IMG/VR virus record: IMGVR_UViG_3300028991_000009
Location: 1-13,495 of that record
Source: a virus
Lineage: Duplodnaviria > Heunggongvirae > Uroviricota > Caudoviricetes
Strand: one strand, 5' to 3'
DNA: 13,495 bases
A program made the translations under genes and the position numbers. How positions within the stretch are numbered: position 1 is the stretch's first letter; each line of letters opens with the position of its first letter. This document shows positions 3,566-6,143 of this stretch, in pieces. The notes beneath the pieces were generated by a model. That model ran no database searches. It saw only the letters and a list, made by a program, of their open reading frames with translations, and was not told where the DNA came from.

Positions 3566-4264
3566 TTACTGCGAAAGTTTATTAATGGAAAGGAAACCGC
3601 CGAAATTAGCCACCATGCCGCGCAGCTCACACCCGCGCAGACACTTGCTGCATCTGTCCTTACGGATATCCGTGGTGGGGTTATCGAACTCATCCGCCAC
3701 CGCAGGACCGTTATACCCGCATTCATCGCCCCGGTAATCCCACATACAGGTGTTCGCCAGCATGATGCGACCAGGAAACAGCGCCCCGTCCGTCTCGGTC
3801 GGTGTCGCCAGCACAAACGAGGCCGTCATGGCCGTCAGCTCTGACATCTGCTCCACCACCCAGCGGTCGGTCAGCTCCTGCTCCGGGTCTGCCTCAGGAT
3901 TGCCTGCCACAAAGTTCACCGCATCCAGAAAACGCGCATACACCCGACGGCGGACCACCGTGGCCCCCACCAGACTCTGCAGGTCCTCCGCCATACCGGT
4001 GACAAGACCGAACAGATTGGACACCGTCAGCGACGGTCTGGCACTGCTGCCCTTCCCGTTCATCTCAAAACCGCTGCCGTCAATCGGGTATGCCTCATAC
4101 GTCCGCCCCTGCCAGGTGACCGGCTCCCCTTTTTCATTCAGCTCGTTGCAGAAAAAATACCGCTCACCGCCCTGCACCGTCAGGTCAATTTCCCAGAGCA
4201 CCACCCGCGGTGACTGTTCTGATTTCACCGACTCGTTCAGACTTTCTTCGTGGATCTCCTGCAT
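3566..4264 (-). CDS. L: Minor tail protein L
   Basis: 232 aa, the same length as lambda gpL, with near-colinear similarity (MQ.I..E.LNE....EQS..VVLWEIDLT..GGERYFFCNE.NEKGEPVTWQGR ... GNFGGFLSINKLSQ). Confidence 0.95.
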   Translation of the reverse strand: MQEIHEESLNESVKSEQSPRVVLWEIDLTVQGGERYFFCNELNEKGEPVTWQGRTYEAYPIDGSGFEMNGKGSSARPSLTVSNLFGLVTGMAEDLQSLVGATVVRRRVYARFLDAVNFVAGNPEADPEQELTDRWVVEQMSELTAMTASFVLATPTETDGALFPGRIMLANTCMWDYRGDECGYNGPAVADEFDNPTTDIRKDRCSKCLRGCELRGMVANFGGFLSINKLSQ

Positions 4265-4276
4265 AAACTTCCACTC

Positions 4277-4301
4277 ATAAAAAAGGGGCGCAATGCGCCC
4301 C
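4277..4301 (-). terminator. Rho-independent terminator closing the porin insertion, 13 nt upstream of the L start
   Basis: Minus strand GGGGCGC / ATT / GCGCCCC (4285-4301) followed by TTTTTTAT (4277-4284). The plus-strand orientation lacks a T tract. Confidence 0.7.
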
Positions 4302-4384
4302 GAACAAAAAAGTTCAATTAAAAATCGAAAGCAATGAAGGTAATAAAATGAAAATTAAATCGGCTAATTGCCGATTGCAGTGAC

Positions 4385-4438
4385 CGGTGAAAACTATACT
4401 TTCACCGCTACAGACCATCTGTGAGGGCAGATGGTCTG
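4385..4438 (-). other. Two adjacent stable hairpins in the porin 3' UTR
   Basis: Perfect 11-bp inverted repeat cagaccatctg(4411-4421) / 6-nt loop / cagatggtctg(4428-4438), and an 8-bp stem cggtgaaa(4385-4392) / 7-nt loop / tttcaccg(4400-4407). Neither is followed by a U tract on the minus strand. Confidence 0.5.
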
Positions 4439-4462
4439 TATTTGTTCACTCACCAGTTATCA

Positions 4463-5599
4463 TCAGAACTGATAAGTCATACCAACGGCAACGATATTAT
4501 CCGTTGCAACACCTGCATCCTGGGTAAACTGACTTTCATCAATCAGATTGATTTTATAATCAACATAGGTGGACATATTTTTATTGAAATAATATGTTGC
4601 ACCCACATCAATATATTTAACCAGATCCTGATTGCCATAGTTTTTACCACCGACAATGACATCCTGAGCACGAGACTGCAGGAACGCCAGAGATGGACGC
4701 AGACCGAAATCAAACTGATACTGTAATACCGCTTCAAAGTTCTGGGCTTTATCTGCCACCCCTTTGTCGCCAAAGGTCGTCATATTCTGAGTCTCAGAAT
4801 ATATTGTCGCCAGATAAATGTTGTTGGCATCATATTTAAGCCCGGTGCCCCACATCTCAGCGTGTTTACCTTTTGCAACACTGCCGGAATCAACAACTGT
4901 TTGAGTACCGTTTACTGTTTGCGTACCATTCAGGCCTTTCACCTGATTGTTGGTACGGTCCGCGTTAGTATATGCAGCCACGATACCAAAACCTTCATAT
5001 TCATAACTGGCAGAGAAACCATAACCATCGCCATTAGCTTCCTGAAGGTCATCACGTTCATTTTTGCCCTGATACTGAGCAGCAAAATTCAGGCCATCAA
5101 CAAGTCCAAAGAAATCAGTATTACGGTAAGTCGCCACACCAGAAGTACGGGCAGTCATGAAGTTATCAGTCTGGGTCCAGACATCACCACCAAACTCTGG
5201 TAATACGTCGGTATAAGCACCAACATCATACGCAATACCATAGTTACGACCATAATCAATGCTGCCAAAGTCACCGAACTTCAGACCAGCAAACGCCAGA
5301 CGGGTCTTATTACCCGCAGCACCGTCTGATTCAGTTTTATTACCAGAGAACTGATATTCCCACTGACCAAAACCGGTCAGTTGATCATTAATCTGAGTTT
5401 CACCTTTAAAGCCCAGACGCGCATATGTCTGATCACCATCATTTCCCTTATCGCTTGAGAAATAATGCAGTGCGGTTACTCGTCCATACAAATCAAGTTT
5501 ATTGCCATCTTTATTGTAAACTTCTGCAGCCTGTGCCCCGGCTGCAAAAATCACAGCCGCAGCCACGGCTGAAAGTGCCACTGTCATTTTTTTCATCAT
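4463..5599 (-). CDS. General diffusion porin of the OmpC/OmpF superfamily, closest to phage-type NmpC/Lc/OmpD porins
   Basis: 378 aa. Signal peptide [24 protein letters not shown] followed by [15 protein letters not shown]. Conserved porin blocks [96 protein letters not shown], and the C-terminal YQF beta-barrel signature. SD AAGGA lies 5 nt upstream of the ATG. The gene is markedly more AT-rich than the flanking tail genes. Confidence 0.95.
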
Positions 5600-5801
5600 T
5601 TGTTCCTTATTTTAATTGAACTATTCATGAATTGGGCTGTCATGAACGCCAGTTAAAATATTTTACTACAAATTCTGAATTCAACTCATTAAATGCAACA
5701 AAATGTAAATAAAAGAGCGATTTCGCACTTTTTGTTAAGACAACAAAAAATAATTTTGCACGAAACAATAAAGATTAATTTATAATACAATTCCTGGAAA
5801 T
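5600..5801 (-). promoter_or_regulatory. AT-rich upstream region of the porin gene with a putative promoter and an OmpR-box-like element
   Basis: A 202-bp AT-rich spacer between the M stop and the porin start. Minus-strand TTTACATTTTGTTGCATTT (5709..5691) resembles OmpR binding sites of ompC/ompF (TTTACATTTTGAAACAT-type, from memory). A candidate -10 TAAAAT lies at 5665..5660 with a weak -35. Confidence 0.4.
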
Positions 5802-6143
5802 CTATGAGATTACCTGCTCAATCGTGCAACTGAAATCACTGTACCGGGCGTTATCCGTAACACTCCACTCCCGGCACACCACCCTGACCGTCCGGTTATG
5901 TTTCGGGGGCTTCCACAAAAAAGCCCGGTAACCACCATGCCATGACAGAAACGCGGACAGTGCCTCCCGCTCAGCATCCGTTGTCACCCGAAAAACCACC
6001 TGAAAGGTCTTCAGTTGCGCATTCAGTCCTGCCGGACGACGCTGCTGATAACCGTCGCCAAACTTCACCGTCATCACCGACGGTTTCTCCGTCACCTGCA
6101 TCCCTTCCCGGGGACACCAGTGAAGGGTCTTAATCTCATCCAC
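5802..6143 (-). CDS. M: Minor tail protein M
   Basis: 113 aa. Motifs FGDGYQQRRPAGLNAQLKT and FLWKPP match lambda gpM (109 aa) as recalled. Its start overlaps the tape-measure stop by 8 nt. Confidence 0.9.
   Translation of the reverse strand: MDEIKTLHWCPREGMQVTEKPSVMTVKFGDGYQQRRPAGLNAQLKTFQVVFRVTTDAEREALSAFLSWHGGYRAFLWKPPKHNRTVRVVCREWSVTDNARYSDFSCTIEQVIS

What the first reader, a model, noticed from the sequence alone, without database searches (positions are those of the whole stretch)
5660..5709. OmpR-box-like element upstream of the phage porin
The minus-strand sequence TTTACATTTTGTTGCATTT about 90 nt upstream of the porin ATG closely resembles the direct-repeat OmpR binding sites of ompC/ompF as I remember them, with a TAAAAT -10 candidate downstream. 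If real, the phage porin would be wired into the host EnvZ/OmpR osmoregulation circuit.
Basis: inference. Interest (0 to 1): 0.55.

Follow-up and report, generated by a model that had tools for sequence, protein, structure and literature searches.

The report
OmpR box upstream of prophage porin
A porin gene inserted among the tail genes of an E. coli-type lambdoid prophage is preceded by a conserved, near-consensus binding site for the host osmoregulator OmpR, much as already known for the phage porin gene nmpC, so this is a credible but unsurprising new example.

Summary
TTTACATTTTGTTGCATTTA (5709-5690, minus strand) matches the first 11 bases of the K-12 ompC C1 site and 15/17 bases of the published OmpR repeat consensus. 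It is the best OmpR-matrix hit in the window and is rare even in AT-rich shuffles.

The box occurs in all 36 related porin loci I collected (17 distinct upstream sequences, 5 lineages). Its second half-site varies only among forms seen in known OmpR sites (GTTGC, GTTAC, GAAAC, CTTAC).

The porin belongs to the NmpC/Lc phage lineage. It sits as a low-GC insert (a "moron") between tail genes M and L. nmpC is already a documented OmpR target, where OmpR represses.

Here the box lies 5 bp upstream of invariant hexamers TTGAAT-18-TATTTT. That would put it at about -60 to -41, the position of ompF F3 and ompC C3. I therefore favour OmpR-dependent activation from a single site. No start site is mapped, so nmpC-like repression remains a serious rival.

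In passing: the porin's 3' untranslated region carries a MicF/IpeX-like element complementary to the host ompC and ompF translation-start regions.

Verdict: new member of a known kind, moderate interest.

The parts
5690..5709 (-). Putative OmpR-binding site: two 10-bp direct-repeat half-sites, TTTACATTTT (5709-5700) and GTTGCATTTA (5699-5690)
   Evidence: Sequence. Identical to the first 11 bases of ompC C1. 15/17 to the published consensus. Matrix score 14.35 bits, top of the window. Present in all 17 distinct upstream sequences at 9.1-16.4 bits, with neighbouring 20-mers scoring negative.
5679..5684 (-). Candidate -35 hexamer TTGAAT, 5 bp downstream of the box (the same gap as between ompC C3 and its -35)
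   Evidence: 5/6 invariant across 5 lineages, while the 5-bp gap is 0/5 invariant and the spacer 5/18. The gap for ompC was read from the K-12 sequence. Assignment as a -35 is inference.
5655..5660 (-). Candidate -10 hexamer TATTTT, 18 bp after TTGAAT (16 bp in the most divergent relative, L121)
   Evidence: 6/6 invariant across 5 lineages. Spacer 18 in most and 16 in L121. Assignment as a -10 is inference; no start site is mapped.
5660..5665 (-).
   Evidence: Present. 4/6 invariant: TACAAT in the LZSFT34 lineage and TTAAAT in L121. No -35-like hexamer lies at 16-18 bp; the best is ATGAGT.
5649..5650 (-). Predicted transcription start (G residues 5-6 nt after TATTTT). A start at 5649 would place the box at -60 to -41.
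   Evidence: Inference from the hexamers. ompF F3 and ompC C3 occupy -60 to -41 when the Seo 2017 start-site distances are combined with the K-12 coordinates.
5724..5738 (-). Conserved upstream block TTAACAAAAAGTGCG (GTCTTnnCAnAAAGTGC across relatives), function unknown
   Evidence: AAAGTG is invariant in 5 lineages; the wider 5738-5721 segment is 9/18 invariant. No conserved -10 lies at promoter spacing downstream of it (and inspection of the alignment).
5610..5622 (-). 5' leader block AGTTCAATTAAAA, complementary to 4311-4323 in the 3' untranslated region
   Evidence: 13 contiguous pairs in the window. Two pairs are kept through changes on both sides in relatives (A-U to U-A; A-U to G-C). 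This implies the stretch is transcribed, so the start site lies upstream of 5622.
5604..5608 (-). Shine-Dalgarno AAGGA
   Evidence: Invariant in relatives.
4463..5596 (-). Porin gene (377 aa from the conserved ATG at 5596; the ORF list starts it at 5599)
   Evidence: ORF. Translation. 59% identity to K-12 OmpC. Signal peptide and about 71% identity place it with NmpC/Lc phage porins. Only the second ATG is conserved.
4276..4362 (-). MicF/IpeX-like element in the 3' untranslated region. Anti-Shine-Dalgarno core at 4332-4359, own-leader-complementary 13-mer at 4311-4323, intrinsic terminator at 4279-4301.
   Evidence: Rfam MicF match of 26.6 bits, below the gathering score of 79. Conserved in relatives. 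Duplex with the K-12 ompC start region -23.8 kcal/mol (1/1000 shuffles) and with ompF -18.9 (11/1000).
5802..6143 (-). Upstream flanking tail gene (gpM-like 'phage tail protein')
   Evidence: ORF. Annotation of the homologous E. coli locus.
3566..4264 (-). Downstream flanking tail gene (minor tail protein L)
   Evidence: ORF. Annotation of the homologous E. coli locus.

Best explanation
The 20-bp element at 5709-5690 is a single high-affinity OmpR-binding site of the ompC C1 / ompF F1 class. It belongs to the promoter of a porin gene inserted in the prophage tail module. It lies 5 bp upstream of a weak but conserved sigma-70 promoter (TTGAAT at 5684-5679, 18 bp spacer, TATTTT at 5660-5655, start near G5649). 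That is about -60 to -41, the position of the promoter-proximal sites F3 and C3. Phospho-OmpR bound there would recruit RNA polymerase. Expression of the phage porin in the lysogen would then depend on the host EnvZ/OmpR system. With only one strong site, it would need OmpR but probably respond little to osmolarity.

Shown: the sequence match, its statistical rarity, its conservation, its orientation, and the conservation of the hexamers. Inferred: OmpR binding itself, the promoter assignment, the start site, and activation rather than repression.
For: **The site**
- The match to C1 and to the published consensus is rare.
- The box is present in 36 loci, 17 distinct upstream sequences, 5 lineages, scoring 9.1-16.4 bits.
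- The second half-site changes only among forms found in known or ChIP-supported OmpR sites: GTTGC (compare F3b GTAGC), GTTAC (F1b), GAAAC (C1b, F2b), CTTAC (nmpC).
- Orientation matches C1-C3 and F1-F3.
- True OmpC and OmpF orthologues among 79 chromosomal porin loci carry the same motif upstream. The OmpD-type closest chromosomal relatives do not.

**The promoter**
- Five-lineage footprint: box half-site a 8/10 invariant, TTGAAy 5/6, TATTTT 6/6. The gap is 0/5, the spacer 5/18, and the overall figure 90/205.
- L121 has a 2-bp deletion in the spacer that keeps it at 16 bp.
- Box, 5 bp, then -35 is the same arrangement as ompC C3, 5 bp, then TTGGAT. F3 and C3 both end at -41.
- The default promoter scan finds no strong sigma-70 site in the intergenic region. 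This fits an activator-dependent promoter.
- In Seo 2017, dtpA is activated from an OmpR peak centred at -46.5. That is consistent with activation from a promoter-proximal position.
- The rival promoter ATGACA-17-TTCAAT is disfavoured. Its -10 drifts to TTCAGT and then TTCGGT, with compensating changes in the 3' element. That stretch is therefore constrained as RNA.

**Context and precedent**
- The insert has 26-46% GC against 55-65% in the tail genes, and its own terminator.
- nmpC is an established OmpR target.
Against: - No binding or expression data exist for this element, and OmpR is known for weak sequence specificity (PMC3945435).
- The start site is not mapped. A crude sigma-70 matrix ranks TTGAAT-18-TATTTT below other candidates.
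- The only experimentally studied homologue, nmpC, is repressed by OmpR, not activated.
- Canonical porin promoters use three tandem sites. Here the neighbouring 20-mers score negative.
- With C1 left out of the matrix, the box is only marginal against AT-rich shuffles (264/5000).
- In the window's own lineage the second half-site has G in place of the conserved A (GTTGC).
Confidence: 0.5

Rival explanations
1. OmpR binds the box but represses, as at nmpC. Transcription would start upstream of the box, for example near the conserved AAAGTGCG block at about 5724-5728, or come from further upstream. OmpR bound downstream of the start would block initiation or early elongation. The phage porin would then be turned down at high osmolarity or low pH.
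For: - nmpC, the closest characterised relative, is repressed by OmpR. Its ChIP-exo peak is centred +43 from the annotated start.
- The peak centre (-88 from the ATG) coincides with the phased half-sites GAAACCAAAA, CTTACATCTT and GAAATAATCA at -100 to -71.
- One MAFFT alignment places the nmpC start region (GATAGAAAAAAGTTCAG) opposite the window's conserved TTAACAAAAAGTGCG.
- From memory: NmpC was discovered in ompR/ompB porin-deficient strains, so that lineage does not need OmpR for expression.
Against: - Upstream of the box there is no hexamer of the TAnnnT form conserved at promoter spacing. Candidates are CAAAAA, CAGAAA and CATAAA, with no -35.
- nmpC lacks the TTGAAy-N16/18-TATTTT pair that is invariant downstream of the box here. 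The nmpC sequence after its box reads CATTGATTAGATGAATATTTATCGCGCAGTGACAT.
- The two upstream regions align convincingly only near the ribosome-binding site, so the layouts need not be the same.
Confidence: 0.25
2. The conserved element is functional but is not an OmpR site. It could be bound by another OmpR-family regulator such as CpxR (GTAAA-N5-GTAAA on the opposite strand). Or it could act as an A+T-rich UP-like element contacted by the RNA polymerase alpha subunit at -60 to -40.
For: - The reverse complement of the 2015C-type box reads GTAAC-AAAAT-GTAAA, 9/10 to the CpxR consensus (consensus from memory).
- CpxR is listed as a co-regulator of ompF and ompC (Seo 2017 supplement).
- The box would occupy the UP-element position if the proposed promoter is right.
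Against: - The second CpxR half-site is not conserved. It reads GCAAC, GTTTC or GTAAG in other lineages. The same variants all keep the OmpR-type nnnAC/GC pattern.
- The invariant C and G positions (TTTAC..G..(A/G)C) are not features of UP elements (consensus from memory).
Confidence: 0.12
3. Chance resemblance in AT-rich DNA that is conserved only because the loci are related. No regulatory role.
For: - The intergenic region is 74% A+T.
- OmpR motifs are A/T-rich and degenerate.
- With C1 left out, the matrix p-value is only about 0.05.
Against: - The five-lineage footprint shows the box half-site a 8/10 invariant next to segments with 0/5 and 2/11 invariant.
- The most divergent relative, L121, keeps two phased nTTAC half-sites although its flanks differ.
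- Consensus-level matches occur about once per megabase in comparable DNA, and that one is at an ompF gene.
Confidence: 0.05

Closest known systems
OmpR sites of E. coli ompC (C1-C3) and ompF (F1-F3)
   Same: - A 20-bp site made of two 10-bp direct repeats with (G/T)nnAC cores.
- First 11 bases identical to C1.
- Same orientation toward the gene.
- Same 5-bp gap to the proposed -35 as C3, and the same predicted -60 to -41 position as F3 and C3.
   Different: - One isolated site instead of three tandem sites; neighbouring 20-mers score negative.
- No distal F4-like site was identified.
- No divergent micF gene.
- A shorter leader (about 53 nt predicted, against roughly 80 and 110).
- The rest of the upstream region is not alignable with ompC.
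nmpC / lc porin genes of lambdoid phages (DLP12, PA-2), a documented OmpR target
   Same: - Same porin lineage: about 71% identity and a homologous signal peptide.
- Phage-borne and expressed as an accessory gene.
- OmpR-type phased half-sites upstream, under the OmpR ChIP-exo peak in K-12.
- Similar sequence around the ribosome-binding site (AATAGTTCAA).
- A 3' untranslated region carrying an anti-porin RNA (IpeX).
   Different: - nmpC/lc lies between Q and the lysis genes on the opposite strand. This gene lies between tail genes M and L on the same strand as them.
- nmpC is repressed by OmpR, with the site at +43 from its start. Here conserved promoter-like hexamers lie downstream of the box, and nmpC lacks them.
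- The 3' untranslated regions share no detectable sequence similarity.
dtpA (tppB) type OmpR-activated promoter
   Same: In Seo 2017 the dtpA OmpR peak is centred at -46.5 and acts positively. The upstream DNA contains GTAAC..ATTAC half-sites 10 bp apart. The window's predicted box centre is -50.5.
   Different: It is a chromosomal transporter gene, not a porin or a phage gene. That this class responds weakly to osmolarity is from my memory of Goh et al. 2004 and was not checked here.
MicF (RF00033) and IpeX anti-porin RNAs (for the 3' element noticed in passing)
   Same: - A U-rich, Shine-Dalgarno-complementary core (UUAUUACCUUCAUU, against MicF UUAUUACCGUCAUU) followed by a strong intrinsic terminator.
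- Complementary to the ompF and ompC translation-start regions.
- Like IpeX, it lies in the 3' untranslated region of a phage porin gene.
   Different: - It scores 26.6 bits against a gathering score of 79 for MicF, so it is not a family member.
- No similarity to the K-12 nmpC 3' region.
- It pairs better with ompC than MicF does: -23.8 against -14.1 kcal/mol.
- It also carries a 13-nt match to its own leader.

Membership tests
High-affinity OmpR-binding site (ompC C1 / ompF F1 class) | Two 10-bp direct-repeat half-sites with a (G/T)nnAC core and an A/T-rich remainder; match to the consensus GTTACATTTTGTTACAT | tested here: met
   TTTAC ATTTT / GTTGC ATTTA. 15/17 to the consensus in the window and 16/17 in the 2015C-3121 lineage. 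The second half has GC instead of AC in the window lineage, as in F3b.
High-affinity OmpR-binding site (ompC C1 / ompF F1 class) | Score above what AT-rich DNA gives by chance | tested here: met
   14.35 bits, 8/5000 shuffles of the intergenic region; ompF-only matrix 26/5000; marginal (264/5000) when C1 is left out. One comparable hit in 547 kb x 2 strands of enterobacterial DNA.
High-affinity OmpR-binding site (ompC C1 / ompF F1 class) | Conserved in orthologous promoters while the flanks diverge | tested here: met
   Present in 17/17 distinct upstream sequences. Five-lineage footprint.
High-affinity OmpR-binding site (ompC C1 / ompF F1 class) | Helical phasing and orientation relative to the promoter (sites at -100/-80/-60 to -41, reading toward the gene) | tested here: inconclusive
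   The orientation is correct. The box is at -60 to -41 only if TTGAAT-18-TATTTT is the promoter. No start site is mapped.
High-affinity OmpR-binding site (ompC C1 / ompF F1 class) | Binding of phospho-OmpR (footprint, gel shift, ChIP) | not testable with these tools
   No experimental data were found for this locus. ChIP-exo exists only for K-12, which lacks this insert.
Canonical osmoregulated porin promoter (ompC/ompF type) | Three contiguous 20-bp OmpR sites bound hierarchically | tested here: not met
   The 20-mers immediately upstream and downstream of the box score -17.0 and -6.8 bits in the window and are negative in all relatives.
nmpC/lc phage porin locus | Porin of the NmpC/Lc lineage | tested here: met
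   Signal peptide [15 protein letters not shown] against NmpC MKKLTVAISAVAAS. 71-72% identity to the porins of 42 lambdoid phage records.
nmpC/lc phage porin locus | Location between the Q antiterminator and the lysis genes, transcribed against them | tested here: not met
   Here the gene lies between tail genes M and L on the same strand. nmpC-type loci lie between Q and S.
nmpC/lc phage porin locus | Homologous regulatory region, with the OmpR site downstream of the start and CRP-dependent | tested here: inconclusive
   Only the roughly 45 bp before the ATG align convincingly. The boxes sit at -113 (window) and -90 (nmpC) from the ATG, and alignments disagree. No CRP half-site was apparent on reading the sequence upstream of the box; no scan was run.
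Phage moron (independently expressed insert in a late operon) | Insert between two conserved phage genes, with deviant composition and its own promoter and terminator | tested here: met
   GC is 26-46% against 55-65% in the flanks. There is a terminator at 4279-4301. Stx-phage tail modules match the flank but lack the porin. The promoter is inferred.
MicF RNA (Rfam RF00033), for the 3' element | Score at or above the gathering threshold of the covariance model | tested here: not met
   26.6 bits against 79.

The most novel reading that the evidence does not exclude
The insert is a self-contained porin-replacement cassette. A single OmpR site lets the host's own envelope sensor switch on the phage porin. 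The same transcript's 3' untranslated region releases a MicF/IpeX-like antisense RNA that silences the host ompC and ompF. That RNA also pairs with the cassette's own leader. Lysogens would thereby exchange their major porins, and with them the receptors for OmpC- and OmpF-dependent phages and colicins. This cassette type, placed inside the tail operon, would be a second lineage of phage porin module, with regulatory logic opposite to nmpC: OmpR-activated rather than OmpR-repressed.
Probability: 0.3. Interest if true: 0.65.

Novelty: new member of a known kind. Interest (0 to 1): 0.4.

Why it matters
If OmpR controls this gene, about 1.6% of complete E. coli genomes (89 of 5426), many from Shiga-toxin-producing strains by name, carry an extra major porin. 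Its expression would follow the host envelope-stress and osmolarity circuit. Porin make-up affects antibiotic entry, phage and colicin sensitivity, and surface antigenicity.

The principle is already established for nmpC/lc, so the finding extends a known theme rather than opening a new one. The possible switch from repression (nmpC) to activation (this lineage) would be a tidy example of regulatory rewiring of a horizontally moving gene. So would the accompanying anti-ompC/ompF element in the 3' untranslated region.

Tried and rejected
1. **Capture of ompC with its promoter.** Rejected. Only the box aligns with the ompC upstream region, and the protein is 59% identical to OmpC against about 71% to NmpC/Lc.
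2. **Inheritance of the box from OmpD-type chromosomal genes.** These are the closest chromosomal relatives, at 67-72%. Rejected, because none has the motif.
3. **Promoter ATGACA (5643-5638), 17 bp, TTCAAT (5620-5615).** It is top in a crude sigma-70 matrix. Rejected as the main promoter. Its -10 degrades to TTCAGT and TTCGGT in relatives with compensating changes in the 3' element. It would also leave the conserved pairing block 5622-5610 untranscribed.
4. **A promoter using the conserved TTnnCA at 5738-5733 as -35.** No conserved TAnnnT lies 16-19 bp downstream.
5. **The second-best matrix hit, TTTTCATTTTATTACCTTCA (4354-4335), as a second OmpR site.** It lies inside the MicF-like RNA element and is better explained by that.
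6. **CpxR and UP-element readings.** See the rival explanations.
7. **Similarity of the 3' region to IpeX.** None was found by blastn with word size 7.
8. **Literature searches** for a described prophage tail-module porin or phage-encoded porin. Nothing specific turned up.
9. **Coll et al. 1994 and Castillo-Keller et al. 2006.** Neither could be read. Statements about them rest on citing papers and on memory.
10. **The default promoter scan.** It found no site in 5600-5800.

Full report
**What is there.**
The window is the tail module of a lambdoid prophage read on the minus strand. It is 92-94% identical over its length to many E. coli prophages. In order it carries:
- the tape-measure gene (6136-9411);
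- a gpM-like tail gene (5802-6143);
- a porin gene (4463-5596/5599);
- gpL (3566-4264), then gpK and gpI.

The porin segment has 26-46% GC against 55-65% in the flanking tail genes. It ends in a strong intrinsic terminator just before gpL. Stx-phage tail modules match the flank but lack the porin. This is the classic layout of a phage "moron", an accessory gene with its own signals inserted in a late operon. The same insert occurs in 89 of 5426 complete E. coli genomes and in 29 IMG/VR viral contigs.

**Checking the observation.**
The minus strand reads TTTACATTTTGTTGCATTTA at 5709-5690 and TAAAAT at 5665-5660. K-12 ompC C1 is TTTACATTTTGAAACATCTA, so the first 11 bases and CAT are identical. 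The OmpR repeat consensus quoted by Seo et al. 2017 is GTTACATTTTGTTACAT (PMC5438342), and the box matches 15/17.

The box is the only match in the window to a C1-like pattern with up to 2 mismatches (0/200 shuffles). It is also the only match to the published consensus with up to 3 mismatches (5/200 shuffles).

I read the seven footprinted K-12 sites directly from the K-12 sequence. Their boundaries are from memory of Harlocker 1995 and Yoshida 2006, and all seven strings were verified present. A matrix from all seven scores the box 14.35 bits, the best hit in the window. Only 8 of 5000 shuffles of the 74% A+T intergenic region reach that score. An ompF-only matrix gives 13.24 bits (top hit, 26/5000). 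Leaving C1 out gives 10.4 bits (second, 264/5000), which is marginal.

In 547 kb of enterobacterial DNA around 79 chromosomal porin genes, scanned on both strands, the consensus with up to 2 mismatches occurs once. That hit is at the F1 position of an ompF-type gene.

**Which porin this is.**
The protein is 59% identical to K-12 OmpC. Its signal peptide ([15 protein letters not shown]...) and about 71% identity tie it to NmpC/Lc, the porins of DLP12, PA-2 and 42 sequenced lambdoid phages. In those phages the gene sits between Q and the lysis genes on the opposite strand. This gene is therefore a second, differently placed lineage of the phage porin family.

Its closest chromosomal relatives are OmpD-type genes (67-72%), and they lack the motif. 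True OmpC and OmpF orthologues carry it 160-196 nt before the ATG.

**Conservation.**
I collected 36 loci of the tail-module type. They give 17 distinct upstream sequences in five lineages. All have the box, scoring 9.1-16.4 bits, while the 20-mers on either side score negative. So this is one isolated site, not a three-site array.

The first half-site is nearly invariant. The second varies as GTTGC, GTTAC, GAAAC or CTTAC. Each of these occurs in a known or ChIP-supported OmpR half-site (F3b, F1b, C1b/F2b and nmpC respectively).

With one sequence per lineage, 90/205 intergenic positions are invariant overall. By segment:

| Segment | Invariant positions |
|---|---|
| Box half-site a | 8/10 |
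| 5-bp gap after the box | 0/5 |
| TTGAAy (5684-5679) | 5/6 |
| 18-bp spacer | 5/18 |
| TATTTT (5660-5655) | 6/6 |

TAAAAT is TACAAT in one lineage and TTAAAT in L121. L121 carries a 2-bp deletion in the spacer, which still leaves a legal 16 bp. Conserved hexamers separated by variable spacers are what a promoter with an upstream activator site looks like.

**Geometry.**
I combined the K-12 coordinates of the sites with the peak-to-start distances in the Seo 2017 supplement. The coordinate offset between genome versions was checked on ompF. On that basis F3 and C3 both span -60 to -41, and C3 is followed by 5 bp and then its -35.

In the window the box is followed by 5 bp (ATGAG), then TTGAAT, 18 bp, and TATTTT. 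A start at G5649 would put the box at -60 to -41.

A stronger-looking pair, ATGACA-17-TTCAAT, is unlikely to be the promoter. Its -10 drifts to TTCAGT and TTCGGT in relatives. Those changes are matched by changes in a complementary 13-mer in the 3' untranslated region. Two pairs are kept through changes on both sides (sequences). That stretch is therefore constrained as RNA, and the start site must lie upstream of 5622.

The default promoter scan finds nothing in the intergenic region. This fits a weak, activator-dependent promoter.

**What is already known.**
nmpC is an established member of the OmpR regulon. Seo 2017 confirmed the earlier report (Coll et al. 1994, which I could not read) with a ChIP-exo peak, and classed nmpC as repressed. 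Zhang et al. 2024 summarise PnmpC as activated by CRP and repressed by OmpR, IHF and MprA (PMC11677980).

Converted to current coordinates, the peak centre is 88 nt before the nmpC ATG. That falls on three phased half-sites, GAAACCAAAA CTTACATCTT GAAATAATCA, at -100 to -71, and +43 from the annotated start. These half-sites are nearly invariant in 51 nmpC-type viral contigs.

So a phage porin wired into EnvZ/OmpR is not a new idea. The differences here are:
- the box is closer to consensus;
- it sits upstream of conserved promoter-like hexamers that nmpC lacks;
- the two upstream regions align reliably only near the ribosome-binding site.

**Mechanism and rivals.**
I favour OmpR-dependent activation from a single promoter-proximal high-affinity site (confidence 0.5 for the whole statement). 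Seo 2017 lists dtpA as activated from an OmpR peak centred at -46.5. Single-site activation of the ompC promoter is something I recall from Maeda and Mizuno 1990 and did not check.

- **Main rival (0.25): nmpC-like repression from a start upstream of the box.** Its weakness is that no conserved -10/-35 pair lies there.
- **Another factor or a UP element (0.12).** CpxR would read GTAAA-N5-GTAAA on the other strand. The variants break the CpxR repeat but keep the OmpR pattern, and the invariant C and G positions do not suit a UP element.
- **Pure chance (0.05).** This is hard to reconcile with the footprint and the rarity figures.

Overall I put the chance that OmpR binds this element in vivo at about 0.75.

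**Seen in passing.**
The porin's 3' untranslated region (4462-4276) is conserved. It gives a weak, sub-threshold full-length match to MicF (26.6 bits against 79).

Its core, UUUAAUUUUCAUUUUAUUACCUUCAUUG, is complementary to the host translation-start regions:

| Target region | Duplex energy (kcal/mol) | Shuffles reaching it |
|---|---|---|
| K-12 ompC | -23.8 | 1/1000 |
| K-12 ompF | -18.9 | 11/1000 |
| The porin's own start region | -10.2 | not significant (592/1000) |

A separate 13-mer (4311-4323) pairs with the porin's own leader (5622-5610). This parallels IpeX, the anti-OmpC RNA made from the 3' end of the nmpC/lc transcript. The sequences are unrelated.

**Verdict.**
The -10 assignment is revised, and the direction of regulation is unresolved. 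It is a new member of a known kind, with moderate interest (0.4). The interest would rise if the cassette as a whole proves to swap host porins.

Noticed in passing
window 4276-4362 (minus strand): A MicF/IpeX-like element lies in the porin's 3' untranslated region. It has a conserved U-rich core (4332-4359) complementary to the Shine-Dalgarno-to-start regions of host ompC (-23.8 kcal/mol, 1/1000 shuffles) and ompF (-18.9, 11/1000), followed by a strong terminator (4279-4301). The Rfam MicF match is only 26.6 bits against a gathering score of 79. There is no similarity to the K-12 nmpC 3' region where IpeX lies.
   Followed up: partly
window 5610-5622 and 4311-4323 (minus strand): The leader sequence AGTTCAATTAAAA is perfectly complementary to UUUUAAUUGAACU in the 3' untranslated region. 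Relatives keep two of the 13 pairs through changes on both sides (A-U to U-A; A-U to G-C). This suggests 5'-3' pairing or self-regulation by the 3' element. The reverse complement of the 3' element looks like a diverged copy of a porin leader and start (AGTTCAATTAAAA...GAAGGTAATAAAATGAAAATTAAA).
   Followed up: partly
window 5594-5599: The ORF list starts the porin at ATG 5599, but only the next ATG (5596) is conserved in relatives, and PGAP uses it in E. coli genomes. The true start is probably 5596.
   Followed up: yes
window 5724-5738 (minus strand): The block GTCTTnnCAnAAAGTGC upstream of the OmpR box is conserved in all lineages (AAAGTG invariant) and has no assigned function. On the plus strand it reads GCACTTT..., loosely like a MarA/SoxS/Rob box (consensus from memory). 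It may also correspond to the nmpC start region.
   Followed up: partly
window 5626-5646 (minus strand): The conserved GTTCATGACA ... CATGAATAG contains two copies of the palindrome TCATGA 15 bp apart, inside the predicted 5' leader. Function unknown; possibly a small-RNA or protein target.
   Followed up: no
window 4358-4440 (minus strand): Three hairpins follow the porin stop codon (4409-4440, about 4385-4407, and 4358-4376). The first two show compensatory substitutions between lineages, for example ACAGACCATCTG...CAGATGGTCTGT against ACGGGCCGTCTG...CAGGCGGCCTGT. The third carries a 13-nt insertion in one lineage.
   Followed up: no
window 4265-5801; loci L001, L002, L085-L089, L094-L122: A porin gene is inserted between tail genes M and L. 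This is a different site and strand from the classic nmpC/lc position between Q and the lysis genes. It is present in 89 of 5426 complete E. coli genomes, many from Shiga-toxin-producing strains by name. In one lineage (L002) further genes (ClpP-like protease, Arc-family repressor, Ant) follow gpL. I found no paper describing this insert.
   Followed up: partly
L121 (IMG/VR UViG_2711768044_000001): This is the most divergent relative of the insert (85% protein identity). Its box is TTTACATTCTCTTACATTTT, its promoter spacer is 16 bp, and its leader carries a 6-nt insertion. It is useful as an outgroup for any future footprinting by comparison.
   Followed up: partly
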